A DNA stretch of 45,145 nucleotides from a virus (lineage: Duplodnaviria; Caudoviricetes). The position numbers were made by a program, and so were the translations under genes. Where the stretch lies: IMG/VR virus record IMGVR_UViG_3300042923_001790, positions 1 through 45,145 of that record. The stretch is one strand, 5' to 3'. The notes below the pieces were generated by a model. It was not told the DNA's origin, made no database searches, and saw only the letters and a program-made list of their open reading frames with translations. Below, one piece after another: positions 1 through 33,749 of the stretch (within the stretch, counting starts at the first letter, position 1; every line of letters begins with the position of its first letter).

Positions 1-2688
1 CCGCTCGACATAGTCCCGCACGCCCTTTTCGAAATTCTCCAGCGAGACCTGCACGTTGTCGGCCCGCACCGAGGGAGCCTCTAGGTCCACATAGGACCAT
101 TGGCCCTGCTTGCCGCTGGTCCCGATGGCGGCGACCGCCAGCCGCAGCGCCAGCGGATCGACCACCGCGGAAATTTTCGGCAGTCGCGTTTCCGGCAGCG
201 GCGTCCAGCTCTCGCCGCCATCATAGGAGACCCGGGCGGTGTAGATGACGGCGCCGGCGGCCGGGAACCAGCTGGCCTCGACGCGCCGCGGGACCTCGTT
301 GGCGATGAAGCGGGCCGTCAGCCCAGCGACGACGAGCTGCTGCTGGTTGCTGAGAGGGGAGCCGTCGGGAAGCGGCGGCGGTTCGGTCAGGTCTTCGTCG
401 TGGACGCGCTCGTCGTCGACGAAGAGTTCGATGCCGACGCGATCCCCGGAAGGCGAGCCGGAGGTGACGACGCAGCGCCGCATCCATGTCGTGCCGAGCC
501 CGAGCGAGAAGCTCGGGAGCTCGCCGCCGTCGCTACGCGCCAGCACATCCTCGAGGTCCAAGCCCTGCACCGTCTCCACGGCGGTGAGGTCCGCATTGTC
601 GAGGACGGCGATGCTGTCATTGGCGCCGCGGGCGCATTTGATCGGGCCGAACGCCTTCCCGCGCGCCGTCCGCAGCACGATGTAGAACTGCCCGGCTTGC
701 CACTCAATCGGCCGGTCGAGGATCAGCCCGGTGCCTACGGCGCGAACAACCTTGCCGGCCTGCCCCCACTCCTGCGGCAGGCTCGACTGCAGCAGGATCG
801 GCGTGCCGATGGACAGGAGCCGGCCGTCATGCTCGGTTTCATGGGAGACCCGCCGGCGACGATAGAGGTTCTGGCGCAGCAGGAATTCCGCCTCGCGTTG
901 CGCCTGCGCCCGCTTCACGATGCCCGGGATCTGCAGCCGGGTAGCATCGGCTATCTGTTCCTCGGTGGCGCTGCGCGGTGCCACGGCCTCCTGCGGCGTC
1001 CAGGTGCTCTCGTCGATGTATTCGAGCACGACGCACTGTGACGCCTCGGTCGGCTTCAGCAGGTATTCGACCTCGAGCGAGCCGCGGACGATCTCGCTGT
1101 CGGTCAGCATCATCGACGGCAGCGAGGCCCACTCGTCGCGCACCAGCGAGAGCGTGCCGCCGAGCCATTTGTGCTTGGTGCGGCAGACCGCGAGCGCGAT
1201 GTCGAGCGCATCGGTGACCGGTTGGGTCGAGGTGAAGTCGTAGTCGAAGGTGTCGCCGCGCGCCGCGCACTTCACGGCGAGGTCGACGAACGCCTGAAAG
1301 TCGGTGCGGGCCAGCGGGAATCGCCCGCCATAGTCGGCATTGGTCGCGATATCGAGCGCCGCCCAGGCCGGCGAGCGCGTCGCCTGCTCCACCCATGCCG
1401 AGCCGTTCCACACCGGCAGGATCCGCGTCTCGACGACGGAAAGCTGGCTGGCGGCGTCGCCGCTGAATTGGTCGGTAGCCTTCGCCCGGATGGCGATCGT
1501 CGAGACCGGGAAGCTCTTCGGCCCGGTGATGAAGGCGCGCAGGCCGGCCCAGGTGATGGTGTCGGAGACCTTGCTGTCGGTGGACTTCACCGTGGTGCGC
1601 TGGACGCGGACCGCATAGCGGCCGGCCGGGACGTCGGCTGCCAGGCTGAAGCGGATCGGGCTCTTCGAGCAGAACGGCACGCTGGGACCGAAGCCGAGGG
1701 TCTGCCAATCGCCGGTCGGCGCGCCGGCGGCATTGATCGGCTGATACTGGGCGAGGACCGGCACGAAGGTGGGTGTCAGCACGCCTTCATCGTTCACCGT
1801 GCCGCAGCCCTGCGGCATCACGATATCGACCACCAGGCGGGTTGCCGTCGTGCCCGGCGCGTTCGCGGCGAAGCCGCCGGTCCACGTCGGATAGGCGAGT
1901 TCCTGCCCGTCTACCTCGGTCGAGGTTTCGACGTTGATCGGAAACGCCGTGATGGTCTGGCCGGGGTTGTAGAAACTGACGGTGACGCCTTCGAACTGCG
2001 GATTCACCCCGCCGCCGGAGGTCCACAGCGAGGTGTCGCCAGTGAGGATCTGTTCGCGAGAGAACTTCCCCTCTCCTTCCGATAACAGGATGTGGACGTA
2101 CTGGTCGTTGCCCTCGAAGCTCGACCACGGCACCGCCGCGTAATCGAGCATCCGCTTGGTGCGCCCATAGGCACTCGGCACGGGCTGCAGCGGCTTTGCC
2201 GAGTTGGTCTGCCGCGCCCACGAATAGATCGCCGTCTCCGGCGTCTGGGAGCCGCCGGGCTGCACCGACGCCAGCGTCGATATCAGGAAGCCGCCGCCGA
2301 GCATGATGGCGCCGGTGAACACGCTGCTGGCGATCGTGGCGGCCCCGCCGGTGAAAAGCGCCCCAGCAAGCGCGCCGCCGGCCCACGGTGCCAGCGCGGT
2401 GAGCGCGATCACGCCCAGCAGTCCGGCGACCGAACTGCCGCCCAGCGAGCCGCCGAACGGCAGCGAGCGGAACTCGACGGCCATGCCGATCTTAATGCGG
2501 GTTTTGCGCCAGGCGGCGCGGAGCACCGGCTCGCCGTCGACAACGCAAATGGTCGGCAGCCGTGTCGTGCTCCAGCCGGCGCGGCGCAGGAATCCGGCGA
2601 TCGTCTCGCGGGCGCGCGGCATGGCGCGGGCGAGTTCGATCCCCGGCGCTGCGATATGCAGAACCGGCAGCATGGTCACAGCGGTCAT
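1..2688 (-). CDS. Tail tip / host-specificity (J-like central hub) protein, 3'-truncated by the window edge
   Basis: Not in the ORF track (no stop in window). Manual translation from ATG 2688: MTAVTMLPVLHIAAPG...ARQTNSAKPLQPVPSAYGRTKRMLDYAAVPWSSFEGNDQYVHILL; same frame reads ...ENFEKGVRDYVER at positions 60-1; follows the NlpC/P60 gene. Confidence 0.85.
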   Translation of the reverse strand, partial: MTAVTMLPVLHIAAPGIELARAMPRARETIAGFLRRAGWSTTRLPTICVVDGEPVLRAAWRKTRIKIGMAVEFRSLPFGGSLGGSSVAGLLGVIALTALAPWAGGALAGALFTGGAATIASSVFTGAIMLGGGFLISTLASVQPGGSQTPETAIYSWARQTNSAKPLQPVPSAYGRTKRMLDYAAVPWSSFEGNDQYVHILLSEGEGKFSREQILTGDTSLWTSGGGVNPQFEGVTVSFYNPGQTITAFPINVETSTEVDGQELAYPTWTGGFAANAPGTTATRLVVDIVMPQGCGTVNDEGVLTPTFVPVLAQYQPINAAGAPTGDWQTLGFGPSVPFCSKSPIRFSLAADVPAGRYAVRVQRTTVKSTDSKVSDTITWAGLRAFITGPKSFPVSTIAIRAKATDQFSGDAASQLSVVETRILPVWNGSAWVEQATRSPAWAALDIATNADYGGRFPLARTDFQAFVDLAVKCAARGDTFDYDFTSTQPVTDALDIALAVCRTKHKWLGGTLSLVRDEWASLPSMMLTDSEIVRGSLEVEYLLKPTEASQCVVLEYIDESTWTPQEAVAPRSATEEQIADATRLQIPGIVKRAQAQREAEFLLRQNLYRRRRVSHETEHDGRLLSIGTPILLQSSLPQEWGQAGKVVRAVGTGLILDRPIEWQAGQFYIVLRTARGKAFGPIKCARGANDSIAVLDNADLTAVETVQGLDLEDVLARSDGGELPSFSLGLGTTWMRRCVVTSGSPSGDRVGIELFVDDERVHDEDLTEPPPLPDGSPLSNQQQLVVAGLTARFIANEVPRRVEASWFPAAGAVIYTARVSYDGGESWTPLPETRLPKISAVVDPLALRLAVAAIGTSGKQGQWSYVDLEAPSVRADNVQVSLENFEKGVRDYVER

Positions 2689-7619: not shown

Positions 7620-7934
7620 ATGCGGATCTTTCTCGTCGTCTTGTTGATCGTCTTGATTGCTACAGGCACAATTGCCTATACACAGCTATCTATCTTCTCT
7701 GTTCAACCTATTGGCGCCGTTCCGGAAGGCAGAACAGTTTTGTTGTTACGAAACGGCCCGATGGAATTCATCGACAGCGCCGATGCGATATGCATGAGAA
7801 CTACGGGAAGCGTGACACTACTATGTCGCGGAGCCGTACTGGGCCGCGTGTCCTCGTCACCAATATTGCTGCGATTACCTTATCAACGATGGCTGTATCT
7901 GATTTCGACGGATGGGCGCGAATTTGGAGAGTAG
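7620..7934 (+). CDS. Moron: small N-terminally membrane-anchored protein (104 aa)
   Basis: Opposite strand to tail genes, lower GC, GGAG RBS, hydrophobic N-terminus, two Cys. Confidence 0.8.
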   Translation: MRIFLVVLLIVLIATGTIAYTQLSIFSVQPIGAVPEGRTVLLLRNGPMEFIDSADAICMRTTGSVTLLCRGAVLGRVSSSPILLRLPYQRWLYLISTDGREFGE

Positions 7935-7945
7935 CCACTCTAAGC

Positions 7946-7980
7946 AGAGGAGGGCAGTCCTATGTGAACCGCCCTCCTCC
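7946..7980 (-). other. Strong RNA hairpin closing the 3' side of the GGY/NN array
   Basis: Minus strand GGAGGAGGGCGGUUC-ACAUA-GGACUGCCCUCCUCU; the stem extends via G:U pairs only on the minus strand. Confidence 0.75.
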
Positions 7981-8001
7981 ACACGTGTCATGGCTAGCTC
8001 G

Positions 8002-8170
8002 ACCTTTCCGTGCCGCGCCTCGCCACTCCAAGCCCCACCTCGCCTAGCCTGCCGGACCGCACCTTTCCAAGGCTCGACAGGACTTGCCTTGACGTGCCTG
8101 CCCACCACAACAAGCCGTATCTAGACTTACCTTGCCTTGCCGCAACTCACCTTGCCTGCCCTGCCCGCCT
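8002..8170 (-). repeat. Array of three GGCAGGC-(NN-GGY)n units with strict 5-nt periodicity
   Basis: GGCAGGC at 8160-8154, 8102-8096 and 8053-8047 (minus strand), each followed by 9-10 variable dinucleotides separated by G-starting triplets, mostly GGC/GGT. Confidence 0.9.
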
Positions 8171-8218
8171 TTCGGCGCCCGAGGTTGAGAACCGCTAACT
8201 CTCGGCGTAACGCAAAGA

Positions 8219-8725
8219 TCAGTTCGTCTTCTTTCCCGGAAGATGCTTTTCGACGTCGTCGATCACCTCGAAGAGTTCAGAGAACTCCTTCAGATCCTTG
8301 TAGCGTGCACGCCACTGCTGAAGCTCGCGCCAAGCACGCTGCAGAACCATCTGCCGGGTTTTCGTTTGGCTCATGGCGTGCCCGGCCTCTCGGTAGTGCG
8401 GCGCGCCGGGCTCAGGGATATGGACATAGGCCTTCGTCCGCACCGCCGGACGGTCATCGGACGTATAGATCGCCACCACAGCGCGGATAAGCCCGCGAGC
8501 CTGATGCAGCCGATACTGCCGTGCCGCTTCCGTGTCGCTCCATTCGAAGAAGGAATGAAGGGGGCTATTCGGGTTTTCGGCGTCCTTGAGCACGTCTTCC
8601 GGCGTCAGCTCGCCATGCTGCTGCTGCCGCAGGAGTTCGAGATGTTCGCCAACGGATTTGGCGTCGAGCGCGGCGCCGGCCTGGAATCGGGTGCCTTGGC
8701 TGAATTCGAAACCGGCTATCTTCAT
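8219..8725 (-). CDS. Conserved phage protein translationally coupled to the RAMP-like gene (168 aa)
   Basis: TGATG overlap at 8723-8727; motif LTPEDVLKDAENPNSPLHSFFEWSDTEAARQYRLHQARGLIR. Confidence 0.85.
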   Translation of the reverse strand: MKIAGFEFSQGTRFQAGAALDAKSVGEHLELLRQQQHGELTPEDVLKDAENPNSPLHSFFEWSDTEAARQYRLHQARGLIRAVVAIYTSDDRPAVRTKAYVHIPEPGAPHYREAGHAMSQTKTRQMVLQRAWRELQQWRARYKDLKEFSELFEVIDDVEKHLPGKKTN

Positions 8726-9393
8726 CAGGCCGCCTCCGCCAGCTTGCCGAGATCGGCTTCGGTCGCGACATGAAACATGCCGCTCTCGCCGTCCTTCTCC
8801 GGCCGCCACTCCCCGATGCCGCAGGCGAAGCCGGCGACGTTCAGCATGTTCAGGATCTGCGCAGGCGAGAGCACGTTCGCATTGAAGCGGACCAACACCG
8901 TCGCATGCCAAGGCCAGAACTCGGCCCGGTAGCGGAGGTCGGCAGTGCCCATGCCGATGCGCACCATGTCCTCACGCATCCGGGGCTTGCCACCCTCGAT
9001 CCGAACGAGGTTCATGCGCGCCGAGGTGCCGTCGAAGGCGCCTTTCACGTCGACGCCGTCGCCGACGATGTGGAACGCCTGCCGGGCGGCCACCTTCGTG
9101 ATTCCCGACACGCTCGTCACCGCGGTCACGGCGGCGGCTTTGAACGCCACCGAAGGGAAGCCGTAGCCGCCGTCCTCGAAGCGGTACATGGACTGCTCGA
9201 AGTCGTCGACGGGGTTCTTCGCCTCCTTGGCGCCCTTCGCCGCCTTCATCTGCTTCTGCAGCATCTCGCGCTTGGCCTTCTGCGACCAGGCGTGAACGAT
9301 GAGCGGCGTGTCGCCGATCAGAGTGGCTTCCATCATCTGAATATCGAGTTTCGGCAGCTCGATTGACGTCGTTTCCTTCTTGGCGTTGGCCAT
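8725..9393 (-). CDS. Solo Cas7/RAMP-like protein (222 aa), candidate RNA-guided effector
   Basis: ATG 9393 with GGAGA RBS; N-terminal strand ATLIGDTPLIVH, PSVAFKAAAVTA helix and C-terminal Gly-rich loop GFACGIGEWRPEKDGESGMF, the layout of RAMP (Cas7-group) proteins; fold inferred by eye. Confidence 0.75.
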   Translation of the reverse strand: MANAKKETTSIELPKLDIQMMEATLIGDTPLIVHAWSQKAKREMLQKQMKAAKGAKEAKNPVDDFEQSMYRFEDGGYGFPSVAFKAAAVTAVTSVSGITKVAARQAFHIVGDGVDVKGAFDGTSARMNLVRIEGGKPRMREDMVRIGMGTADLRYRAEFWPWHATVLVRFNANVLSPAQILNMLNVAGFACGIGEWRPEKDGESGMFHVATEADLGKLAEAA

Positions 9394-9528
9394 GATCAGT
9401 CTCCATGGGCATCCGGCCCGCCAAGACCTGGATGCGTACAGGTGGTCGCTTACGACCGCCGGAGCCCATGAAGCTCGCGGTCGCATCAAATCCCCATGGC
9501 GGCGGGGAATTCGTGATGTCGGGTGTTC

Positions 9529-10191
9529 TCAGCTCGCCGGGGCGAGCCGCTCGATGTCGTTGATCAGGGCGATGGTCGCGTTGTAGTCGTCGTCGGTCCA
9601 GTTGCTGGCGTCTTGCCGGCGGACGACGGCGACCTTCACCGCGAGATCGGAGAGAGAGGTCGCCGGCGTGGTGAGGATTTCATCCTCGATCGCGCAGAGC
9701 GCCTCGTAGGCTGTGATCGAAGCTTCCTCCGCGGCGTCGAGACCGATCTCGTCGCGCAGCCGCTTGAGGTCGCTCTCCCACCGACGAACGGCATCTGCCC
9801 TTGCCTGTGCCTTATCAGCAAGCTCGTGCCAGTTCCTCTTTCGGTACTTGGCGGCCACGCTTTCCCATTGGGCGATGGTGCCCACGGTGCGATACCGGCC
9901 ATCAGGCTGACGCTCTTCCGACCAGCGGGCAGAAAACATGAAGCCGTTCGGCACGTACGCTTCTGTCGGCCTCATGGGCTTCCGGTCAGCGTAGAGCCGC
10001 CCTGCCCCTTCCGCCTCGTCGCTCGCGCTCTCGTAAGCGGCCAGCGCCGCATCGAACTGCGGCTTCATCAGCGCGAGGTCGCTGCTGGCCATCGCGGGCA
10101 GCGGGATCGTCAATCCAGCCGCCGCCCCGGCGCCGATGCCGGCGAGGAACCGGCGACGGGATGTGGTAGTCTGCTCGATAGCTTCGACCAT
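9529..10191 (-). CDS. Hypothetical protein with twin-arginine-like N-terminus (220 aa)
   Basis: TSRRRFLAGIGAGAAAG; C-terminal TPATSLSDLAVKV; GGAG RBS. Confidence 0.8.
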   Translation of the reverse strand: MVEAIEQTTTSRRRFLAGIGAGAAAGLTIPLPAMASSDLALMKPQFDAALAAYESASDEAEGAGRLYADRKPMRPTEAYVPNGFMFSARWSEERQPDGRYRTVGTIAQWESVAAKYRKRNWHELADKAQARADAVRRWESDLKRLRDEIGLDAAEEASITAYEALCAIEDEILTTPATSLSDLAVKVAVVRRQDASNWTDDDYNATIALINDIERLAPAS

Positions 10192-10254: not shown

Positions 10255-10301
10255 TTCGTGATAACACGATCACATCGAATGTCAACTCATGTTATCACGA
10301 A
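10255..10301. promoter_or_regulatory. Inverted-repeat operator overlapping a leftward sigma70 promoter
   Basis: TTCGTGATAACACGA (10255-10269) and TCATGTTATCACGAA (10287-10301), 14/15 complementary; minus-strand TTGACA at 10285-10280 with a TATCAC -10 candidate 16 nt downstream. Confidence 0.75.
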
Positions 10302-10309
10302 AACACCAA

Positions 10310-10591
10310 ATGCGCGCACCCGAGACTGGAACGCTTGTTGGAGTCCGGCTTCAGGCTGAAGATCTCAACGCCCTCGATGACTGGCGGCGTCAGCAGGATG
10401 ATCTTCCCTCTCGTCCAGAAGCAATGCGCCGACTAACCGCCTTCGCGCTTGCCCTCGCCCCGCACTTCGAAGCCATCGAGGGCTTCGTAGGCGTTTGCAT
10501 CATCGCGAAAAATGGGGACCTGACGGACCCGGCGCATCGAGCGCTATTGGATGCACTTGTCGAGGCCAATGAAGCCGTGCGCAGCTCATGA
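10310..10591 (+). CDS. Ribbon-helix-helix (CopG/Arc-like) regulator, divergent from the cassette
   Basis: LVGVRLQAEDLNALDDWRRQQDDLPSRPEAMRRL RHH pattern. Confidence 0.8.
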   Translation: MRAPETGTLVGVRLQAEDLNALDDWRRQQDDLPSRPEAMRRLTAFALALAPHFEAIEGFVGVCIIAKNGDLTDPAHRALLDALVEANEAVRSS

Positions 10592-19325: not shown

Positions 19326-21184
19326 CCAATCACCGTTAGTTCGAAGTCATCCGGGATGCCCTTCGGCGTCTGGATGTCCTTCCCCGCCGCGCCGGTCGCC
19401 ATGGCGATGGTCACCATGCCGTCGATGCGCCCCCGCGATCGCTTCTTGTCGAACGCTCGATTGTTCATCCCGTCCGACGCGACATGGGCATTCGCGGCGC
19501 ACGAATAGGTCACAGGTGAGGAATCGATCACGATGGACCCATCGAGGACCCGATCCTCAAGGCGTTCGATCGACCTTGGCATGCAAAGCCGTTCTATCGG
19601 CTTCCCCTGCTCATCGAGCTGCTTGTAGAAGAGCACCTTGGTCCCCTGCCCGTGCGGCACGAGCATCAGTCCAACGCCTGGAAGCGTGTCCGGCCCCTCG
19701 TAGAGCCAAGCGGGGAACCCGATCTCTTCACACGCCTCCATGAACACGCCCATGCCGGCGGGATCGAAAGCCAAGCATCGGACGTCGTGGCTCGCGCAGA
19801 TTTCCGCGACCTTGGCGGCAACAAAGGACTTGTCGATGACCGCTCCGTCGACGGCAGCGAGATGGCGCTCAATCACCCACCTTTCGTAGGGCGCGCCGTC
19901 CGCTTTCGAGCGCTCCGCCAGGCCACTCTTCGTCGTCCAGTACCAAGTTTTTGCGAAGAGCTTTCCGTCCTTCAGCCACACGGCCGTCAGGGCCGTCAGA
20001 TCGTTCTTTTGCGAAAGGTCGAGAGACAGCCAGCACGGGCATCCCCTGAACTCGTCCGGATCGACGCTTCCCTGGACTGCCGCCCAAGCCTCCTCGGCGA
20101 TCCAGAACTCGGTCGCGCCGATCGGAATGCCGAAATACAGGCGTTTGACCGAGAGCGAAGTCGAAAGAAGGACCTTGGCTGTCTTGACCTGGCCTCGGAC
20201 GTTCTCGATCGGGAAGGTGATCCCAAGCGCCGGGAGCGCCTTGGGCCAGCACTTCTCGTTCTCGAAGACCGTCTCCCTATCGGCCTTGTCCACACGTGCG
20301 ACGAAGGCGAACGCCTCGTCGTCGTCGACCTCCCCTTTTGCGACCTTCTGGTAGAATTCCGAGTATTCGGTGCCGACCAGCTGCGTCGACGAGGGCGTGT
20401 TGGTGCCGAGCAGCATGAGAGCGTCACCCGGCATCTTGCCGATAGCGCCCTTCCACACCTCGATCGACGTGTTGTTCTTGAACTCGTGGATTTCGTCGGC
20501 CAGCACCGCCGCCGGCCGCGGACCGGAGATGGCCTCGCCGTTCGCCAGCGACTGGAATTTCGAGCTCGTCTCCGGATGCTCGATCTTCCAGGCGTTGTCG
20601 AGCTCGCCACGGATGATGACCTCGCCGCGTTGCTCGAGGGTGTCGGTCTCGTCGTCGCCGGGTGGAATCGGCGCTCGGCACATCGCCACGGCGTCCTTGA
20701 ACAGGACGTTGGCGGTCGCGCGGTCCTGACCGATCGAATAGACCTCCGAACGCTGGATGCCGTACCAGCCCATCAGGTACAGGCCAATCGCAGCCATGAA
20801 TGGACTTTTGGCCTGCCCCTTACCGGTTTCGAACCAACCGTGGCGAAACCTCATCCTTCCCGTAGCCAATCGCCAGCCGAACAGCGAGCCGCCGCAGAAG
20901 ACGTGCCATGGAAGCGGATGGAACGGCTTTCCCTGCAGCGAACCGGCGGTGATGCTCAATACCGCCGGCATGAAGCGCAGCGGGACGGCCGCCATCTCCG
21001 GTCGCCAGAAGATGCCCCGGCGCTCGCCGTCCTTGATGTCGCGGAGATGGCGCTCCGCGGCATGACAGACCAACTCGCCCGCTACGATTCGACCGCCGAC
21101 GACCTGCCTCGCCCAATCGGTCGTCGGGTCACTTGGAAACCGGCCGGAGGAACTCGTCCGCGGCGCGCTGGGCTTTCTTGCCAC
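19322..21184 (-). CDS. terL: Terminase large subunit
   Basis: Walker A-like GKGQAKS, Walker B LADEIHE, nuclease LDLSQKNDLTA, RIDGMV. Confidence 0.95.
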   Translation of the reverse strand: MARKPSAPRTSSSGRFPSDPTTDWARQVVGGRIVAGELVCHAAERHLRDIKDGERRGIFWRPEMAAVPLRFMPAVLSITAGSLQGKPFHPLPWHVFCGGSLFGWRLATGRMRFRHGWFETGKGQAKSPFMAAIGLYLMGWYGIQRSEVYSIGQDRATANVLFKDAVAMCRAPIPPGDDETDTLEQRGEVIIRGELDNAWKIEHPETSSKFQSLANGEAISGPRPAAVLADEIHEFKNNTSIEVWKGAIGKMPGDALMLLGTNTPSSTQLVGTEYSEFYQKVAKGEVDDDEAFAFVARVDKADRETVFENEKCWPKALPALGITFPIENVRGQVKTAKVLLSTSLSVKRLYFGIPIGATEFWIAEEAWAAVQGSVDPDEFRGCPCWLSLDLSQKNDLTALTAVWLKDGKLFAKTWYWTTKSGLAERSKADGAPYERWVIERHLAAVDGAVIDKSFVAAKVAEICASHDVRCLAFDPAGMGVFMEACEEIGFPAWLYEGPDTLPGVGLMLVPHGQGTKVLFYKQLDEQGKPIERLCMPRSIERLEDRVLDGSIVIDSSPVTYSCAANAHVASDGMNNRAFDKKRSRGRIDGMVTIAMATGAAGKDIQTPKGIPDDFELTVIG

Positions 21185-21566
21185 GTTGCACCTTTCCGGC
21201 CTTGGCGCGACGAACAGGCGCTATGCCGAGCTCCGCCTCGAGCACCCGGATGTGCTCATCCGCCTGGCGCATGATGGTCCAGTAGGGGCTGACCTGAGGG
21301 ACCTTCGTCCGGCGGGCCTTGAGGATGGTTCCGTGCTCGGCGATCTGCCGTGCCGCCCGCCGATACTCGACGTAGAACTCGACGAGGCGCTGCATCGCGT
21401 GGCCGTTGACGATCGCCAACGTCGCCGCGTTCTTCATCTCACGTTCGATGATGCCCCATCGCTCGTGAGCTTCGGCGATGTCGAGCTCATCGGCGAATTG
21501 AGAGGTCCAATCTGGCTCCGGCGGAACCCCGTCACCACCGTCAACGGAGGTAAGCTGCATCGTCAT
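21129..21566 (-). CDS. terS: Terminase small subunit (P27 family)
   Basis: PPEPDW...SPYWTIMRQA...ELGIAPVRR; position. Confidence 0.88.
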   Translation of the reverse strand: MTMQLTSVDGGDGVPPEPDWTSQFADELDIAEAHERWGIIEREMKNAATLAIVNGHAMQRLVEFYVEYRRAARQIAEHGTILKARRTKVPQVSPYWTIMRQADEHIRVLEAELGIAPVRRAKAGKVQRGKKAQRAADEFLRPVSK

Positions 21567-21683
21567 CCCCTACGGGGATGGCCGAAACCCCCCTTCCAAA
21601 ATTTGCTCGCAGTGCGAATGCTTGACCCCATGCGGTCCGGGCCCCGGTCGCTCTAGAGATTTAGCACCCCCCGGGGGTACTGC
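21567..21683. other. Probable cos/packaging region
   Basis: Non-coding gap between HNH and terS genes, the usual cos position in HK97-like phages; exact site not determined. Confidence 0.45.
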
Positions 21684-22061
21684 TCAGCCTCTGCGGTTCC
21701 AAGGGTGGTTCGGGTCGAGTGGCCGACCGTCGACCGTGCAGCCGCGCATCCCGCCATCGCCGCGTTCTTCGCGCTGCTTTGAGCTTGAGTGATGCGCGAC
21801 GCAGAGTGGCTGCCAGTTGTGCTTGTCCCAGAACAGGACTCGCGCCTTCGCCAGTTCATCGGGCGTGCAGGCCTCGGCAAGGCGATGCGGCACGATGTGA
21901 TCGACGATCGTTGCTTTCGTCCGGCTGCCCTGCAGCGCACATCGACAGCACCATTCGTGAGTGCGCAGGAACTCCCTGCGCGCCTTGTCCCACTTGCTGT
22001 CGTAGCCGCGCTGGCGAGCTCCAGGTCGCACGCCGTCAGGTCTCCTGCTCGGCAATGCCAC
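21684..22061 (-). CDS. HNH endonuclease (terminase-associated, HK97 gp74-like)
   Basis: RGYDSKW...VDHIVPH...NWQPLCVAHHSSSKQ. Confidence 0.92.
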   Translation of the reverse strand: MALPSRRPDGVRPGARQRGYDSKWDKARREFLRTHEWCCRCALQGSRTKATIVDHIVPHRLAEACTPDELAKARVLFWDKHNWQPLCVAHHSSSKQREERGDGGMRGCTVDGRPLDPNHPWNRRG

Positions 22062-22198
22062 GCCGACACCTCACCACGCGCCAGGCCGGCTGCTGCGTCG
22101 CCCATTCGTTCATGGATGCAGTGCATTCCATCGACTGACCTATTGGCGGCGCGCTGCCGACGATGCAGGATCGGCGGGTTGTCAGGTGGGGGCGCACC

Positions 22199-22399
22199 AT
22201 GGCCAAACTTGAGAAGTCGCCGAGGGAGCGCGCTGCTCGCGCGCTATGTGGTCTATCCGGCAATCCTGAGAACGCGATGTTCGAAGGGGAGCCGATGTGG
22301 AAGAGCTTCCTCGATGAAGTAGACACGGTCTTGATCGCGGCACTCAGCGAGGAAGAATGGCGCAGGATCCGCGCCCTCGATCCCCCAGATCCCGAATAA
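22199..22399 (+). CDS. Small hypothetical moron protein (66 aa)
   Basis: SPRERAARALC...GEPMWKSFLDEVD; ATG 22199. Confidence 0.7.
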   Translation: MAKLEKSPRERAARALCGLSGNPENAMFEGEPMWKSFLDEVDTVLIAALSEEEWRRIRALDPPDPE

Positions 22400-22417
22400 G
22401 GTTCCTGCCGCCAGGCG

Positions 22418-22443
22418 GGAACTGCCCTGCTCACGGACGGGTT
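22418..22443 (+). promoter_or_regulatory. EcfG (general stress sigma)-type promoter
   Basis: GGAAC-N17-GGTT upstream of the PRC-barrel gene. Confidence 0.65.
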
Positions 22444-22472
22444 GAGATGGCACACCATTAGGAGTGCCAATC

Positions 22473-22787
22473 ATGGACCACGCCAATCACGTTCGCCTTC
22501 TGCCCTCGGAACTCACCTCCGACGTTCTCGAGAGCGCACCCATCTATGGCCCCAACGACGAGAAGATCGGGTCCGTCTCTCATCTGCACGGCAGCGGACC
22601 CGATTCCAGCGTGGTGGTGGACGTCGGCGGCTTCCTCGGAATCGGTGCCAAGCCGGTTGCTCTGCCGATCCAAGATCTGGACGTCATGCGCGATGAAAGC
22701 GGCGAGGTCCATGCCGTCACCCGCTGGACAAAGGAACAGTTGAAAGACCTGCCGGAACATACCGACGACGCCAAGTTCTCCGGCTGA
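22473..22787 (+). CDS. PRC-barrel domain protein
   Basis: IYGPNDEKIGSV...VVDVGGFLGIGAKPVAL; GGAG RBS. Confidence 0.9.
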   Translation: MDHANHVRLLPSELTSDVLESAPIYGPNDEKIGSVSHLHGSGPDSSVVVDVGGFLGIGAKPVALPIQDLDVMRDESGEVHAVTRWTKEQLKDLPEHTDDAKFSG

Positions 22788-22818
22788 CGAGAACTCCGTC
22801 TAGCTTCCCCGCGCTATG

Positions 22819-22858
22819 AAAACGCCCGCTGTTTTTTGTACAGCGGGCGTTCTTTTTC
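22819..22858. terminator. Bidirectional terminator between convergent morons
   Basis: 12-bp stem AACGCCCGCTGT/ACAGCGGGCGTT with A- and T-runs on the flanks. Confidence 0.8.
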
Positions 22859-22876
22859 CAGTTCGACACGTCGCGC

Positions 22877-23791
22877 TTATCGCGTTCTCACGTATAGATT
22901 GTCGTCGTCCCGCTGATAGCCGCCGATGGCAGCGGCGACGGCAGCGATGAACGCCCCGACCATCATCGAAAGTGCGGCAAGGAGGGCGAATGTCGCGCTG
23001 GCCTTGCGCGCGGTGTCCGCCGCCTGCTGCGCCTTCACCTTCGCGTCGTTCACCTGCTTCAGCACAGCATCGACCCGCGCTGTGGCGTCAGCCTCCGATA
23101 GCCCCGTGCGTGCGGCGACCAGTTGGCCGAGATAGGCCTTGTCGCCAGGCGAGACCTCTCCAGCGGCCGCGCTCGCCAGGAGGATCCGGGACGCCTGCGA
23201 AGCCGCCGCTGCATCGCCCTCCGGTCCGGGCTCCGCCTGCTTTGCGGGATCGCTCGGACGGAACAACGCGTCGACAAAATAGGCAGCCGCGTTCGACGTC
23301 TCACCGGAACCTGCATTCGACGTCGCGCCAGCCGAAGCGCCTAGCGCGGCGCCCGAGGCGACGGTAGATGCCGCCTGAACACCGGTGCTCACGGTCGACG
23401 AAATAGCGGACCCCAGAACCGACACAACCAGCAGAGTGGCCAGCGCCCAGGCCAGAAAACCATGGGCAGTGTCACGGAACATCGCCTCACCTGTTTTGGG
23501 CCCGGTCCATTTCGTCCGCAGGCGGCCGGTCAGATAACCGCCGAGTCCCGACGAAAGCCACTGCACCACGACAAGCCAGATGGCCGTCGAGACCGCGAAA
23601 GTCGTGACGCTTGCGCTCTCGTTGACCCACGGAGAAACCATGGTGAGCCCGATGCCGGAGCCAACCAGCATCAAAACGAATGTCAGAGCCGAGGCCGCAA
23701 CGGCGCCCGCAATGACTGGTCCCCAGCTTACAGCGGATGAAGACGATTCAACCGTCGCTGCGGTCGTCGTCGCTGAATATGTCTCGGCCAT
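22877..23791 (-). CDS. Multi-pass membrane protein of rhizobial type (304 aa)
   Basis: SAVSWGPVIAGA...GGYLTGRLR...RDTAHGFLAWA; several TM segments; AGGAGG RBS. Confidence 0.85.
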   Translation of the reverse strand: MAETYSATTTAATVESSSSAVSWGPVIAGAVAASALTFVLMLVGSGIGLTMVSPWVNESASVTTFAVSTAIWLVVVQWLSSGLGGYLTGRLRTKWTGPKTGEAMFRDTAHGFLAWALATLLVVSVLGSAISSTVSTGVQAASTVASGAALGASAGATSNAGSGETSNAAAYFVDALFRPSDPAKQAEPGPEGDAAAASQASRILLASAAAGEVSPGDKAYLGQLVAARTGLSEADATARVDAVLKQVNDAKVKAQQAADTARKASATFALLAALSMMVGAFIAAVAAAIGGYQRDDDNLYVRTR

Positions 23792-23890
23792 GGATTTCCT
23801 CCTGACTGAACAGCGCGCGAGCGTGTCATGGAGGGGCCCAGGATCGCCGTCGTGCCGGCGGTTTCACGGCTCGTGAGTTCCGCGCCTGAT

Positions 23891-23916
23891 AACAGGAGGA
23901 CGGTTACGAAGGTTCC
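23891..23916 (-). promoter_or_regulatory. EcfG-type promoter
   Basis: Minus strand GGAAC-N17-TGTT upstream of the 304-aa membrane gene. Confidence 0.6.
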
Positions 23917-23941
23917 TTGGATGAGAGCGCGTCTCGGGCAC

Positions 23942-23972
23942 AAAAAAACGCCCGCAGCGGGAGCAGCGGGCG
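23942..23972 (-). terminator. Rho-independent terminator ending the early-leftward operon
   Basis: Minus strand CGCCCGC...GCGGGCG followed by T7. Confidence 0.75.
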
Positions 23973-24055
23973 CATTTCGTTCCGATCATGAATTTCGTCG
24001 GCAATTAGGACTGATTTGCTCGATCTACGCAAGAGGGTGCCCTCGGATTGCGCAC

Positions 24056-24751
24056 CTATTTGTACGTGATGTCGAGCTCCCTTTCCTCGTGCCCCCATAA
24101 TGGCCGGTCCGCCCGCTGTGCCCGCACCCTGGGCTTTGGCCCGTGCTTCTCTTCCATCGGGTCGTGCGGCCGCTCCATCCGCCACAAGCGAGCCAGCTGA
24201 CCAAGACCTGCTTTCAAGACCTGGAGGAGCGCGAAGTCGACCTCGGCATCGCGAAGCACGACGCTCTCCATGACGGCAAATACCTGCCGCTTGTCCGACA
24301 GCCGCCGAATGGCATTCATGGCAGCACTGTGCTGCACGAGCACGCGTTCGCGACGTTCTTCGTCCGTCTCCCGCTCTGCCGCCGTCCCCGACCTCTCCGA
24401 ACGATTGCGGCTTTCGCTGTCGACTTCATCGGCAACCATCTGCCCCATGGCCGAACCGGGCATGACCGGGGCGGCAAGCACCTGGTGGAACTCGCCGACG
24501 AGCTTGCGCCAGCGGTCGCCGGCCCAATACTCGGATTCCGTGATCTTCCCGGCGAGCAGCAGGCGGCCAAGGGCGTTCTCTGCCAGTTGGTCGCTGCGGC
24601 GCCCCTTGCCGAGCCAGGCGCGGTGCGGCTGCGAGAGCGCCACGTCCATGACGCCCCGCAGGCCACGCACGGCGCGCTCGGCATTGGCCTCCGACAGCTT
24701 CCCCGAACGGGTGCGCCGCCCTTCTTTCCTCTTCCGTCCCTTGCGTGCCAT
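24056..24751 (-). CDS. Probable late-gene regulator (Q-position protein)
   Basis: Basic N-terminus, LGRLLLAGKITESEYWAG, LKAGLGQLARLW; last gene of the replication operon. Confidence 0.55.
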   Translation of the reverse strand: MARKGRKRKEGRRTRSGKLSEANAERAVRGLRGVMDVALSQPHRAWLGKGRRSDQLAENALGRLLLAGKITESEYWAGDRWRKLVGEFHQVLAAPVMPGSAMGQMVADEVDSESRNRSERSGTAAERETDEERRERVLVQHSAAMNAIRRLSDKRQVFAVMESVVLRDAEVDFALLQVLKAGLGQLARLWRMERPHDPMEEKHGPKPRVRAQRADRPLWGHEERELDITYK

Positions 24752-24766
24752 CGTCCCTCTCCGCCG

Positions 24767-25786
24767 CTATCGTTCGCCTGCCGCTTGCTGTCGCCTATCC
24801 GGCCCGTCTCGGCTCGGTGGCCACTCGCTCGGAAGCCGTTTTCCCGTCATCTTGTTCGGACGGCCGGCAAATGGGCGCGCCGGATAAACCTCCGCCCTCA
24901 GCGGAAGCCCGGCTTCATCGGCAACGGACTGCCAAGCATCCCACTGAGGTGTGCCGAGCTCGACGATTACGCCGCCGGAGAAGTTAGGCTGGAATGACCT
25001 CCGCAGCGCTGCCACGCCGGGGCTGTCTGGCACCCTCGGCTTCAGCGAGACGGCGAAGTTCTTGAACGTGCCGCGGAGATAGGCCGACGGGTCGGTCATT
25101 TTCCGGTGTTCCTTGGCACAGACTGCGCGGTAGGCCGGGATTGCTGCCACCGCGGCCTTGCACTCGTCCTCGGTCAGCTTGAGCCATTGGCGATGGCCGC
25201 GGTGCTTGGGCCATGCCTGCGAGGGGCCGTACTCAGCCAGGAAGGCGAGATAGGCCGGATCGGCCTCCCATCCCGCTTCCCCTGACGAAGTCCCCTCGCC
25301 CACCGCCCCCTTGGGGGCTATGGGGGTATTTGTTCTCTTTTCCGTATTTGGTTCTTCTATATGCACAGCCTGAAAAGCCGCGCGCGGCAAAGCCGGTTGT
25401 GGGTGGTGTTTAGGTGTGTCGAGAGCCACAACCGGATTTTCAGGCTGTGGCTCAACGCCGTCAGCATCGTCAGAGGCGCTATCCATAGTATCGGCTGGCT
25501 CGTCGTACACAACATAGTCGATGCCGTTGAATGCACGGGTGACCGGATCGCGGGTCCGTTCCCGTTTTATCCAGCCCGCGTCGACTAGCTCGGCAACGAC
25601 GCGCTGCGTCTTGTCTCGGCCGATCTTGAAGCGCTCAGAGAGATGGGCGAGTTCGACGTTCCAGTCCCCCGGCCGGGAGCGCAGATAGCAGAGCACGCCC
25701 ATGGCTTCCGCTGACAGACGCTCATCGTCCAGGACGGCATTCGGTAGGACCGTGAAGTTGCGGTTGTAGCGGCGACGGATGATCAC
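24767..25786 (-). CDS. Phage replication initiator (N-terminal winged HTH)
   Basis: NFTVLPNAVLDDERLSAEAMGVLCYLRSRP...ELVDAGWI. Confidence 0.85.
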   Translation of the reverse strand: MIIRRRYNRNFTVLPNAVLDDERLSAEAMGVLCYLRSRPGDWNVELAHLSERFKIGRDKTQRVVAELVDAGWIKRERTRDPVTRAFNGIDYVVYDEPADTMDSASDDADGVEPQPENPVVALDTPKHHPQPALPRAAFQAVHIEEPNTEKRTNTPIAPKGAVGEGTSSGEAGWEADPAYLAFLAEYGPSQAWPKHRGHRQWLKLTEDECKAAVAAIPAYRAVCAKEHRKMTDPSAYLRGTFKNFAVSLKPRVPDSPGVAALRRSFQPNFSGGVIVELGTPQWDAWQSVADEAGLPLRAEVYPARPFAGRPNKMTGKRLPSEWPPSRDGPDRRQQAAGER

Positions 25787-26106
25787 GGATCTGTCTCCGC
25801 AACCTTTCCGGCTGCCAGTAAGTCGAGGACCGTGCCGATCGGGGAAAGCGCCCTGCCCTGCTCGTCACGCGATAGGCCGTGTCTCAGCACATCGGGGCTG
25901 GCGCCGTGCTGCAGAGCGATGGACGTCACCACCGCGGCGTCTCGGGCATTCACCTCGACATCGGTCCCGGCCTTCGGGCCACAGAGGAAGATCTCGCCCA
26001 GGCGGCCGTCGTCGTAATAACCGAACGTGGCCGTGTAGCTGATGCCCTTCACTTCGATCTCGAAGCTCTCGGCGGCGCGGCGGTCGGGGAGCAGTTCGCG
26101 CGTCAT
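25783..26106 (-). CDS. TSCPD-like (NrdJ C-terminal-like) small protein
   Basis: RELLPDRR...DGRLGEIFL...SIALQHGA. Confidence 0.7.
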   Translation of the reverse strand: MTRELLPDRRAAESFEIEVKGISYTATFGYYDDGRLGEIFLCGPKAGTDVEVNARDAAVVTSIALQHGASPDVLRHGLSRDEQGRALSPIGTVLDLLAAGKVAETDP

Positions 26107-26207
26107 GGACGCCCCCCGACCGAGAACAGACGAGTTTGCTTCGAATTTTCGCGGAACCTTACGGCATGTGGGGCGTTCGCCGCTGGATCAAGGGTGACGC
26201 CTAAAGC

Positions 26208-26513
26208 GTGGGGACGACGGTGGAAATTCTCCGCAGACTGACGGGGACGGGCATGTTGCGCCCGCCCGGCATGGCAGCTGCCAAAGCTGAGTACTGGATC
26301 TCCGTAAGGCGCCGAAAGACCGGCCCAAAAGCCGGCGAGGTGATCATTGGCGGGCAGGTCGAGACCAATATGGCCGCGCTTCTCAGCGCTCGCGACGGTC
26401 GCGCCTGGCTGACGCTGGAGACCGGTGCGATCTACGAGGTGGAACTGCACCACCTCACCACCACGACGGCCGAGTTCCGCGTATTGCCTCCTTTCGATAG
26501 CCTGCTCGACTAA
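26208..26513 (+). CDS. Hypothetical protein (inverted insert); start uncertain
   Basis: Coherent beta-rich ORF, first of three plus-strand ORFs. Confidence 0.55.
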   Translation: MGTTVEILRRLTGTGMLRPPGMAAAKAEYWISVRRRKTGPKAGEVIIGGQVETNMAALLSARDGRAWLTLETGAIYEVELHHLTTTTAEFRVLPPFDSLLD

Positions 26514-26585
26514 AGCGCACTTGTGCACATTTGAGCCCGGGCCTGCGTCCGATAGAGTATCGTGCTGGGTAGGGAGTTCGCCGTT

Positions 26586-26828
26586 ATGCCCCATGGGCTG
26601 CAACTGCCACTTGCCAGACCGATCGTGTTGCAGGGTGATCCACCCCGCACGATCGACACTTTCTTGGCAGCTGTTGAGTTTCTGGCTTCGAGCGAGGGGC
26701 CGCGCTCCCCGGAGGTCGAGGCCACCATCGATCAGCTCATCGCCGCCGGGCAGAGCGGAGAGCCCTCGGCCGTAGACGACGTAACTGACCGGCTCGTGCT
26801 GTTGCTGCGTCAGCGCGGGCAGTTGTGA
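26586..26828 (+). CDS. Small hypothetical protein, paralog of 26874-27149
   Basis: GGAG RBS before ATG 26586; LPLARPIVL...TIDT...PEVEATIDQLIAA. Confidence 0.7.
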   Translation: MPHGLQLPLARPIVLQGDPPRTIDTFLAAVEFLASSEGPRSPEVEATIDQLIAAGQSGEPSAVDDVTDRLVLLLRQRGQL

Positions 26829-26873
26829 GGTGACGGCTCGGCCCTGCGCTTCTCGCGCCGAGCCTGCTGTCAG

Positions 26874-27149
26874 ATGAAACCAGTGAGCGGCTTCGCGCTT
26901 ATTGGCTCGATGGCACCGCACTGGCACACACCTCTGCCCGAGCCGATAGCGCTCACGTCCGGAACGTCGCTGCACACGCTGCTCGACGTCGGTGCTTTCC
27001 TGCGCGCGAACTACGAAGGCCGGCGCACGCCTCCGGTTGAGGCCACTATTTCTGCCCTGCTGCGCGCTGCGGACACCGGTGATGAAGCAGACCGGCACCT
27101 CGCCTACGAGCGCGTGGCGCGCCTCCTTCGCTTCAACCGCCTGATCTGA
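26874..27149 (+). CDS. Small hypothetical protein
   Basis: TPLPEPIAL...SLHTL...PPVEATISALLRAA. Confidence 0.7.
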   Translation: MKPVSGFALIGSMAPHWHTPLPEPIALTSGTSLHTLLDVGAFLRANYEGRRTPPVEATISALLRAADTGDEADRHLAYERVARLLRFNRLI

Positions 27150-27160
27150 CGTCCACGCTG

Positions 27161-27769
27161 TCATCCGGCCGCCTCCGTGGCGTCGAACTTCGTCGCTTCG
27201 TTGCCCCAGGTATCCCAGCCGGCGCGCGACTGCCGGGAGAAGACGGACACACGCCGCGCCTCCGGCCACGCCTTCTCAACGGCCGCGTAGAACTCGTCGG
27301 GCTTGCGGGAATGCTCCCTGGCAACGCCGTCGATCGCATCGGCTTCGAGCGTCTCGACGAGATTGGGGAAGCCGGCTCCCTTCCATGACGACCCGGGCAG
27401 CCGCGCGATGATGTACGGCTCGTGGAGCGACCGGGCGACATAGCCCGTGCCCCAACGCGCCTTGCCTGACGGGTATCGCTTGGTCCATCCGCCGCCGGTC
27501 ACCGGCAGCAGGCCCCAACCACGGATCACCTCGACATGGGCGCCGATCGCCACGAGCGGCCAGGTGCACCACATGATGCACACGCCGCCAGGCGCTATCA
27601 GATTGCCAACCGGCAGAGCCTTGATGTCGTCCAGCGACATCGTCTGGTACTGCGCCTGGGCGGACTTCTTCTCTCCCTTGGCCGAGCGAAGGGCGAAGGT
27701 CCACGCGGGATCGATCTCGGCGACGTCGTAGGCGAACATCGACAGGGGAGAGAACGGCCAGCCGGTCAC
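27161..27769 (-). CDS. MT-A70-family adenine methyltransferase
   Basis: IDPAW (DPPW variant), YQTMSLDDIKALPV, REHSRKPDEFY, GWDTWGNE. Confidence 0.9.
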   Translation of the reverse strand: MTGWPFSPLSMFAYDVAEIDPAWTFALRSAKGEKKSAQAQYQTMSLDDIKALPVGNLIAPGGVCIMWCTWPLVAIGAHVEVIRGWGLLPVTGGGWTKRYPSGKARWGTGYVARSLHEPYIIARLPGSSWKGAGFPNLVETLEADAIDGVAREHSRKPDEFYAAVEKAWPEARRVSVFSRQSRAGWDTWGNEATKFDATEAAG

Positions 27770-29169: not shown

Positions 29170-29196
29170 CGCGGCCACCCTCAATGTTGGAGATTG

Positions 29197-29472
29197 TCAG
29201 CCGATCATTCCGAGCGACTGGAGATAGAGGTCGACGATCGCCTCATGTTCCGCGCGCTGGTCGGCGTCCTGCCGCCGGATCTTCAGGATCTCCTTCAGCG
29301 CCTTCACGTCGAACCCGGCACCCTTCGCCTCGGCGAAGACGTCCGAGATGTCGTCGGAGACGGTCTTCTTTTCCTCCTCGAGGCGCTCGATGCGCTCGAT
29401 GAAGGACTTAAGCATCTCTCGGGAGACGTTCGCGGCTTCTTCGCCGGTGGCGGTTTCGGGGTTCTCCGACAT
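29197..29472 (-). CDS. gapR: GapR-like nucleoid protein (DUF2312)
   Basis: LKSFIERIERLEEEKK...AEAKGAGFDVKALKEILKIR. Confidence 0.92.
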   Translation of the reverse strand: MSENPETATGEEAANVSREMLKSFIERIERLEEEKKTVSDDISDVFAEAKGAGFDVKALKEILKIRRQDADQRAEHEAIVDLYLQSLGMIG

Positions 29473-29503
29473 GATGAGGCTCCAGTTATGAGGCGGCTGT
29501 GGA

Positions 29504-29752
29504 TCAGCGCGCGAAGAGATCGGCCACCGGCGCGGCGGGGCGCTCAGCGGGCTTGGTCTGTTTCAGTTCAAGAGGGATCAGCAGGCGAGTGAGGAGGCTG
29601 ATGCGGCGAGCCAACGGCGGCCGGCGATAATCGTGTGGCTTGAGAGAGTTGTATTCCGCGATGGCTGCCGCTCGCGTTGCGGCCACTTCTCTGCGCCGCA
29701 TCTCGGTCCGGGTCGGCTTCGGGTCGGCCGTCTTGTGGTAAGAGCGCGACAT
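29504..29752 (-). CDS. Hypothetical protein (82 aa)
   Basis: GGAGG RBS, in operon. Confidence 0.65.
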   Translation of the reverse strand: MSRSYHKTADPKPTRTEMRRREVAATRAAAIAEYNSLKPHDYRRPPLARRISLLTRLLIPLELKQTKPAERPAAPVADLFAR

Positions 29753-29767
29753 GTCCCCTCCCCATGA

Positions 29768-30751: not shown

Positions 30752-30758
30752 TGCACGA

Positions 30759-31533: not shown

Positions 31534-31576
31534 GGGGCTCATCTAGACACCGCTAGCCCTCGCGGCAAGCTCGCAG

Positions 31577-31733: not shown

Positions 31734-31758
31734 AAGGGTAAAAATACAGAATAGCGCT

Positions 31759-33731: not shown

Positions 33732-33749
33732 GCGGCTCACCCTCTGTTT

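What the first reader, a model, noticed from the sequence alone, without database searches (positions are those of the whole stretch)
8002..8170. Internal grammar of the array: three units of constant triplets alternating with variable dinucleotides
Minus-strand parse. Unit 1 (8160-8103): GGCAGGC aa GGT ga GTT gc GGC aa GGC aa GGT aa GTC ta GAT ac GGC tt GTT gt GGT g. Unit 2 (8102-8054): GGCAGGC ac GTC aa GGC aa GTC ct GTC ga GCC tt GGA aa GGT gc GGT cc. Unit 3 (8053-8002): GGCAGGC ta GGC ga GGT gg GGC tt GGA gt GGC ga GGC gc GGC ac GGA aa GGT. Every triplet starts with G, phase is never lost inside a unit, and GGCAGGC resets the phase. This looks like a processing or boundary signal separating individual guides of about 50-58 nt, not a slippage microsatellite.
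Basis: seen in the sequence. Interest (0 to 1): 0.9.

Follow-up and report, generated by a model that had tools for sequence, protein, structure and literature searches.

The report
Phage VIPR staggered guide-RNA array
This five-base repeat is the guide array of a phage VIPR system, a CRISPR-related kind first described in 2026; its three units spell out gapped matches to tail and head genes of a closely related rival phage, which the system likely silences.

Summary
The pattern is real, with two corrections: unit 1 ends one base short, and unit 3 runs on to about 7992. It is the guide array of a VIPR system (2026 preprints). It lies behind a Vipr gene (9393-8725; same PHROG family as SUSP1 Vipr, Cas7-like fold) and an accessory gene (8725-8219). 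GGCAGGC is GGC-A-GGC, a one-base register shift matching the published 'staggered' arrays. In relatives, triplets are conserved and NN pairs vary.

Under the published one-base-skip rule, all three units match one related provirus without a vipr hit (G003): guide 3 at 22/22 (tape measure), guide 1 at 18/20 (tail tube), guide 2 at 15/18 (head-cluster gene, weaker). All are on the sense strand with the wobble base skipped. The phage's own homologous sites score 11/22, 16/20 and 13/18.

Cutting at the junction is untested; no RNA run was listed. A covarying pseudoknot-plus-hairpin leader sits 5' of this and many related arrays; Rfam and two paper searches gave no match. This scan has reported VIPR arrays before on other DNA. 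Verdict: new member of a known kind, with a clean target set and an unexplained leader.

The parts
8725..9393 (-). vipr gene: RAMP/Cas7-like guide-binding protein, 222 aa
   Evidence: phrog_4652 at E 6e-29, the family of SUSP1 Vipr (E 1e-96); profile hit to PDB 36pp 'SUSP1 Vipr protein', E 1.5e-6, the only hit at E<=1; model pLDDT 86 matches Csm3/Cmr/Cas7 chains
8219..8725 (-). accessory gene (vap-like), 168 aa, start overlaps the vipr stop
   Evidence: phrog_15946; a homolog lies beside vipr in 79 of 79 related loci; no similarity to SUSP1 vap1; only weak winged-helix regulator rows in PDB, none at E<=1e-3
8166..8216 (-). conserved 5' leader: predicted H-type pseudoknot followed by a small hairpin (8177-8166)
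   Evidence: 16 aligned leaders: 92% of cells paired, 7 pairs with changes on both sides, 0/500 shuffles reach the covariation score, slid controls 27-54% paired; 28 viral-contig hits, 24 followed by a GGY/NN tract by a strict count; no Rfam match
8103..8160 (-). guide unit 1 (10 full NN steps, last step one base short); predicted target: tail tube gene of a related phage
   Evidence: 18/20 in the G003 tail tube gene, in frame; own site 16/20 at 11719
8054..8102 (-). guide unit 2 (9 NN steps); predicted target, weaker: phrog_5707 gene behind a major capsid gene
   Evidence: 15/18 in G003, in frame, first 14 bases exact; the best own site (13/18, 15263) lies in the window's own phrog_5707 gene
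   Evidence: the only exact 18/18 hit in viral contigs, extending to 22/22; own homologous site 11/22
7944..7982 (-). strong hairpin closing the array (3' cap or terminator-like, no U run)
   Evidence: -34.9 kcal/mol, z -4.2, 0 of 200 shuffles as good; downstream 80 nt fold at z<-2 in 17 of 28 close loci, with differing sequences

Best explanation
The repeat is a three-guide VIPR array whose variable dinucleotides match tail and head genes of a closely related phage under a one-base-skip code, and it likely directs the Cas7-like Vipr protein encoded upstream to bind those genes and block their transcription. Shown here: the gene layout, the Vipr family and fold, the conserved-triplet/variable-NN grammar, the one-base junction, and the target matches. 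Taken from the published SUSP1 and P. fulva work and not tested for this clade: one Vipr subunit binds each five-base repeat, hides the triplet, and presents NN to double-stranded DNA, skipping every third target base. Inferred: the array is transcribed with vipr and vap; the leader pseudoknot sets or protects its 5' end; the GGC-A-GGC junction breaks the filament register and is likely where the RNA is cut into 49-62 nt guides; the outcome is silencing of a rival's virion-gene operon. The guides sit on stretches where rival and self differ, which would limit self-silencing.
For: Vipr identity. SUSP1 residues reported to contact RNA or DNA align to H33, K49, K55, R155, C190, E194, W195 and R196 (numbered without the first Met). 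Co-occurrence: 79 of 79 vipr loci carry the accessory gene and 72 of 79 a parsed array (some loci are duplicates of one phage). Junction: 388 of 396 parsed junctions have one spacer base (the parser favours this) and 248 read GGCAGGC. Skip rule in this clade: of 234 guides scanned against the fetched loci, guides with a match of 88% or more number 11 for skip 1, against 0, 2, 3 and 2 for skip 0, 2, 3 and shuffled. Window guides against G003: 18/20, 15/18 and 22/22 at skip 1; at best 15/20, 13/18 and 16/22 at other skips. G003 shares 40% of the window at 69-92% identity and has no vipr or vap hit; the gap between tail chaperone and tape measure is 403 nt against 3062 nt here. Only 7 of 308 tail-tube codons differ in their first two bases between window and G003, and guide 1 covers the one adjacent pair (11% of windows differ as much; 14% for guide 3's site).
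Against: No expression, processing, binding or silencing data for this locus. Guides 1 and 2 each miss at their last two NN steps in G003 and had 0 exact hits in viral contigs, so their true targets are probably unsampled relatives. Guide 2's 15/18 is near background: 2 of 234 control guides reach that level in G003 at each wrong skip. Guide 1 matches the phage's own tail tube gene at 16/20, exactly the 80% the discovery paper uses as its target threshold. The non-target-strand clamp residues K82 and K88 of SUSP1 are not conserved in my alignment (38 identities in 175 columns). Units 1 and 2 have no 3' structured tail, which caps the RNA in SUSP1. G003 is estimated 86% complete, so its lack of VIPR is not certain, and shared host range is inferred from DNA similarity only.
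Confidence: 0.88

Rival explanations
1. Same VIPR system, but the array is never cut. It stays one RNA from leader to 3' hairpin, and the one-base shift alone ends one Vipr filament and starts the next, so one RNA carries three guides.
For: No structured tail or processing hairpin lies between units. Structure is found only at the two ends of the whole array. The discovery text names sRNA-seq support for ribozyme-interspersed and single-guide layouts only. No nuclease gene was recognised in the cassette.
Against: The legend of fig. S18 speaks of 'individual processed vrRNAs' for staggered arrays (figure not seen). The junction base is strongly biased to A, more than a pure register shift needs. 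RAMP proteins such as Cas6 and Csm3 can cut RNA (own knowledge).
Confidence: 0.3
2. The complex destroys its target, or acts on the rival's mRNA, instead of repressing transcription on DNA; the accessory protein would supply the activity.
For: All three window targets have the guide identical to the sense strand. The accessory protein is not SUSP1 vap1 and has no assigned fold. Some VIPR types carry nuclease accessory genes.
Against: A guide identical to the sense strand cannot pair with the mRNA; it pairs with the template DNA strand. No nuclease family was found for the accessory protein in Pfam or PHROGs, and its weak fold rows are mostly DNA-binding regulators.
Confidence: 0.08
3. A degenerate microsatellite or a short coding sequence with no guide role.
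For: Short ORFs overlap the tract (77 aa minus, 62 aa plus), and it is G-rich.
Against: A period of 5 with one-base shifts cannot hold a reading frame. NN strings are unrelated between close relatives. The tract travels with vipr. A 22/22 gapped match falls in a sister phage, and its last four bases were not in the search pattern.
Confidence: 0.01

Closest known systems
VIPR systems with staggered vrRNA arrays (bioRxiv 10.64898/2026.04.26.720920, main text and legend of fig. S18)
   Same: vipr + one accessory gene + array of GGY/NN pentamers; successive guides offset by one base with no tail between them; phage location; 9-11 NN steps per guide (published: 9-16 repeats).
   Different: I could not see the figures or data files, so the VIPR type (I-VII) cannot be assigned. 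The triplets here are looser (GTY, GGA, GAT, GCC). A conserved 5' pseudoknot leader is not mentioned in the text. Natural targets are reported for the SUSP1 and P. fulva clades and for types III and V, not tied to staggered arrays.
Type II VIPR of Escherichia phage SUSP1 (same preprint; structures in 10.64898/2026.04.26.720927, PDB 36pp; NC_028808)
   Same: Same PHROG family for Vipr, conserved G-loop and guanine-contacting residues, one-base skip falling on the wobble position, targets in a rival viral element.
   Different: About 22% identity; unrelated accessory protein; SUSP1 guides are separate ~100-nt RNAs each with a 3' pseudoknot tail, while these are head-to-tail units with structure only at the array ends; the rival here is a sister siphophage, not a satellite.
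Class 1 CRISPR backbone proteins Cas7/Csm3/Cmr4
   Same: RRM core, thumb and glycine-rich loop; best Z 9.7, rmsd 4.1 A over 149 residues.
   Different: No CRISPR repeat-spacer array, and no other cas gene among the neighbouring ORFs scanned; specificity is in gapped dinucleotides, not a contiguous spacer.

Membership tests
VIPR | Vipr protein: stand-alone RAMP homolog with RRM, thumb and G-loop | tested here: met
   Shared phrog_4652 with SUSP1 Vipr; hhalign 95%, E 4e-8 over 60 columns; PDB 36pp hit; Cas7-type fold
VIPR | Minimal locus: vipr plus an accessory gene, no CRISPR array | tested here: met
   Two-gene unit 9393-8219; accessory homolog in 79 of 79 loci
VIPR | Adjacent non-coding tract of 9-16 GGY/NN pentamers, triplet conserved, NN variable | tested here: met
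   9-11 NN steps per unit; triplets include GTY and other variants
VIPR | Targets recognised by the one-base-skip rule, skip at the codon wobble position | tested here: met
   Computationally: 22/22, 18/20 and 15/18 in frame; skip-1 enrichment over other skips and shuffle
VIPR | No self-target at 80% or more NN match | tested here: inconclusive
   Guides 2 and 3 stay below 80% in the window (13/18, 15/22 at best); guide 1 reaches exactly 16/20 on its own tail tube gene
VIPR | vrRNA is expressed and binds Vipr; complex binds dsDNA and represses transcription | not testable with these tools
   Needs bench work; no RNA run was listed
VIPR, staggered-array form | Successive guides offset by one base, end of one marks start of next | tested here: met
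   GGC-A-GGC junctions; compared with the legend of fig. S18 only
VIPR, staggered-array form | RNA is processed at the offsets | not testable with these tools
   No RNA reads
VIPR type II (SUSP1-like) | vap1 accessory gene | tested here: not met
   Different PHROG family; hhalign probability 0.04%
VIPR type II (SUSP1-like) | Invariant structured 3' tail after each guide | tested here: not met
   Units 1 and 2 run straight into the next unit; only a terminal hairpin follows unit 3
Hammerhead-interspersed VIPR arrays | Hammerhead ribozyme between guides | tested here: not met
   No hammerhead core motif within 150 nt of any parsed array, the window's included; no Rfam match at 7800-9700
CRISPR-Cas class 1 | Repeat-spacer array and multiple cas genes | tested here: not met
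   Neighbours are tail, head and replication genes (29 of the window's ORFs were scanned, not all); no Rfam CRISPR repeat at 7800-9700

The most novel reading that the evidence does not exclude
The pseudoknot-plus-hairpin leader at 8216-8166 is an undescribed catalytic or processing RNA, possibly a new small self-cleaving ribozyme, that frees the guide array from the vipr-vap message. It and a second, unrelated leader type are interchangeable cassettes in the slot that hammerheads fill in other VIPR arrays, and they also head arrays with no vipr gene nearby.
Probability: 0.12. Interest if true: 0.8.

Novelty: new member of a known kind. Interest (0 to 1): 0.42.

Why it matters
VIPR itself and its staggered arrays are in print, so the grammar is not new. 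This locus adds three things. First, a clean natural test of the gapped code in a distant clade: three guides converge on one sister provirus, one at 22/22. Second, guides that fall on stretches where rival and self differ, which bears on how such phages avoid silencing themselves. Third, a compact multi-guide array with a covarying 5' RNA element of unknown role. How staggered arrays are cut into guides, and how new guides are written, are open questions. This 1.4-kb cassette, with a sister phage that keeps guide 1 but differs in leader, genes and later guides, makes both directly testable.

Tried and rejected
Exact searches of viral contigs for guide 1 (20 bases) and guide 2 (18 bases): 0 hits each. 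A 16-base guide-1 pattern gave 102 hits; 2 were tail-tube homologs (G003 and L152), and the rest were treated as background for an A-rich pattern. The 2 exact guide-1 hits in metagenome contigs (L220, L221) were rejected as chance: AT-rich DNA, a stop codon in the decoded frame. 301 genomes of the family of G002: guide 1 at <=2 mismatches 1 hit, guide 2 at <=1 mismatch 1 hit, both unconvincing; guide 3 at <=3 mismatches 9 hits against 2 control hits, of which only L201 (19/22) is a tape-measure homolog. The MAG with the identical locus (G001) held no good target: 2, 3 and 0 sites at <=3 mismatches, controls 1, 1 and 0. Ten tail-tube relatives: only G003 (18/20) and L210 (17/20) came close for guide 1. 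No RNA holder was listed. No sigma-70 promoter and no U-tailed terminator near the array by simple scan. Rfam gave nothing at gathering level for either leader type. From memory I compared the leader with twister, pistol, HDV-like, hammerhead, preQ1 and SAM-II layouts and saw no fit; that is recall, not a test. MFE folding of the window's leader alone is unremarkable (z 0.6); the method cannot form pseudoknots. The accessory protein stayed unassigned: Foldseek no E<=1e-3, ESM Atlas only unnamed viral clusters; the wider structural search of its model was never run. One search crashed after printing its statistics; the skip test was rerun.

Full report
Observation. The three units are in the sequence as written. 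Autocorrelation peaks at lags 5, 10 and 15 (0.52, 0.47, 0.44, against 0.20-0.32 elsewhere). The G-every-fifth-base runs (14, 23, 10 steps) include two longer than the longest run in any of 40 Markov simulations of the window (8-13). Unit 1 ends one base short (GGT-g-GGC-A). The same letters are in MAG locus L062 and in a 151-nt contig of another study (X5), so this is a real variant. A sister contig in X4 shows the regular two-base step at that place. Unit 3 extends to about 7992.

Setting. The window is a 45-kb virus record with terminase, portal, protease, major head, connector, tail tube, chaperone and tape-measure genes on the minus strand. The array lies in a 3.06-kb gap between tail chaperone and tape measure. 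An identical locus is in a Xanthobacteraceae MAG, and an 88%-identical Vipr is in Ancylobacter polymorphus.

The proteins. The gene at 9393-8725 matches phrog_4652 (E 6e-29), as does SUSP1 gene agp039 (E 1e-96), whose product YP_009199429.1 is named as Vipr in 10.64898/2026.10.15.759431. A profile of 120 homologs finds one PDB sequence at E<=1, 36pp 'SUSP1 Vipr protein' (E 1.5e-6); hhalign gives 95% over the C-terminal 60 columns. The AlphaFold2 model (pLDDT 86) matches Csm3, Cmr and Cas7 chains (Foldseek, 42 matches at E<=1e-3; best Z 9.7). SUSP1 residues H17, K33, R39, R138, C173, D177, W178 and R179 align to H, K, K, R, C, E, W and R here; E71, M72, K82, G87 and K88 do not keep their identity (38 identities in 175 columns; roles). 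The next gene (8725-8219) is phrog_15946, unrelated to SUSP1 vap1. Its model is confident (pLDDT 90) but has no PDB match at E<=1e-3.

Relatives. Searches gave 61 viral and 18 genome loci (several are duplicates of one phage). All 79 carry the accessory gene and 72 a parsed array. Of the 7 without one, L006, L015 and L078 show tracts in the looser scan, and L004 and L022 end near the gene. In 252 unique units, entropy by position is 0.37, 0.92, 1.20, 1.91 and 1.96 bits (triplets were scored by my parser, NN were not). 388 of 396 junctions have a single spacer base and 248 read GGCAGGC. Only 3 of 27,261 pairs among 234 guides share their NN string. This fits the 'staggered vrRNA arrays' of the discovery preprint.

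Decoding. The preprint's rule joins the NN pairs with one wildcard. Against the fetched loci with arrays masked, guides with a match of 88% or more number 11 of 234 for skip 1, against 0, 2 and 3 for skips 0, 2 and 3 and 2 for shuffled guides. For the window, guide 3's 18 bases had 1 exact hit in viral contigs: provirus G003, in its tape-measure gene, sense strand, wobble skipped. The next four bases, which were not in the pattern, also match, giving 22/22. G003 also holds guide 1 at 18/20 in its tail tube gene and guide 2 at 15/18 in a phrog_5707 gene behind a major capsid gene, both in frame. At wrong skips the best scores in G003 are 15/20, 13/18 and 16/22. G003 shares 40% of the window at 69-92% identity and has no vipr or vap hit (86% complete), and its chaperone-to-tape-measure gap is 403 nt.

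Self versus rival. The window's own homologous sites score 16/20, 13/18 and 11/22 (its own phrog_5707 gene). The two tail tube genes differ at the first two bases of only 7 of 308 codons; guide 1 covers the one adjacent pair. 11% of equal-length windows differ as much, and 14% for guide 3's site. This is suggestive, not proof.

Against. Guides 1 and 2 had no exact viral hit, and both miss at their last two steps. Guide 2's score is reached by 2 of 234 control guides at each wrong skip. Guide 1's self score equals the paper's 80% threshold. 301 family genomes added only one tape-measure homolog at 19/22. The two exact metagenome hits for guide 1 look like chance.

The leader. Upstream of the array, 19 of 79 loci and the window share a motif that can form two crossing stems followed by a hairpin. 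In 16 aligned copies 92% of cells pair, 7 pairs change on both sides, 0 of 500 shuffles reach the covariation score, and slid controls pair at 27-54%. The structure was drawn from these sequences and they are related, so this overstates significance. A pattern scan found 28 viral copies. 24 are followed by a GGY/NN tract by a strict count; two more visibly are, one is cut off, and one is not followed by a tract. In 23 distinct copies the G/C pair is concordant 23 of 23 times, and the first three pairs of the first stem, which the pattern fixed only at one G, pair in 22, 23 and 21 of 23. 10 of the 28 have no vipr hit within 1.5 kb. The window's own first stem is weak (one G-A mismatch). A second, unrelated leader precedes arrays in 13 of 79 loci and in 9 of 9 scan hits. 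The X4 sister contig has that second type in front of a near-copy of guide 1 (5 differences in 61 nt). Rfam gave no match. Two paper searches returned four VIPR-related preprints; in what I read, pseudoknots are described only as 3' tails, apart from 3 uses of the word in 10.64898/2026.10.21.760802 that I did not open. Figures and data files that I could not see may show this leader.

Mechanism. Shown: layout, family, grammar, junction and target matches. From published work on other VIPRs: one protomer per pentamer, gapped pairing with double-stranded DNA, transcriptional repression. Inferred: co-transcription with vipr and vap, a role for the leader at the 5' end, separation of guides at GGC-A-GGC (cutting more likely than not, about 0.65), and silencing of a rival's virion genes.

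Papers seen. 10.64898/2026.04.26.720920: whole text with methods and legends and a term search of its supplement PDF; no figures, tables S1-S3 or data S1-S4. 10.64898/2026.04.26.720927: parts 1-2 of 6 and passages. 10.64898/2026.10.15.759431: part 1 of 8 and passages. 10.64898/2026.10.21.760802: passages.

Verdict. A real feature and a new member of a known kind. Earlier notes of this scan report VIPR arrays on other DNA. Interest 0.42, raised above routine by the convergent targets and the unexplained leader.

Noticed in passing
window 8216-8166 (-); L001, L009, L019, L222-L249: Conserved pseudoknot-plus-hairpin leader 5' of staggered VIPR arrays, no Rfam match; 10 of 28 viral copies have no vipr hit within 1.5 kb, so some may head orphan guide arrays.
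   Followed up: partly
L007, L008, L011, L012, L016, L024, L027, L029; L250-L258: A second leader type (long hairpin then GGCRAGGATC) fills the same slot; L005 and L029 repeat a leader before each sub-array.
   Followed up: partly
run X4, 26.7-kb contig against window 7812-9500: Sister phage keeps both flanks and a near-copy of guide 1, but has different DNA in place of vipr-vap, the leader and guides 2-3: a snapshot of cassette turnover.
   Followed up: partly
window 8299-8270 (-), guide of L005: A guide from another phage matches this window's accessory gene at 17/20 in frame, and 18/20 in L006 and L009; a guide from L074 matches vipr genes of relatives at 19/20.
   Followed up: partly
window 11719-11690 (-): Guide 1 matches the phage's own tail tube gene at 16/20; possible weak self-targeting or tuning of late genes.
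   Followed up: partly
G003:C1 about 20500-37700: A 17-kb block not shared with the window holds a major capsid gene, a phrog_5707 gene and a head-tail adaptor; it may be a second element inside the record, and guide 2's site lies in it.
   Followed up: no
L030 5256-6359: A 1.1-kb staggered array of about 20 units whose junction base is mostly C or T, with near-duplicate units.
   Followed up: no
window 9529-10191 (-), 10289-10591 (+), 7620-7934 (+): Other genes in the same gap: a 220-aa protein with a weak Tat-signal-like start, a small repressor-like gene, and a phrog_37309 gene on the opposite strand.
   Followed up: no
window 31000-33000: GC content dips to 52-57% against about 65% elsewhere, around a phrog_3243 gene (31759-32823).
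   Followed up: no
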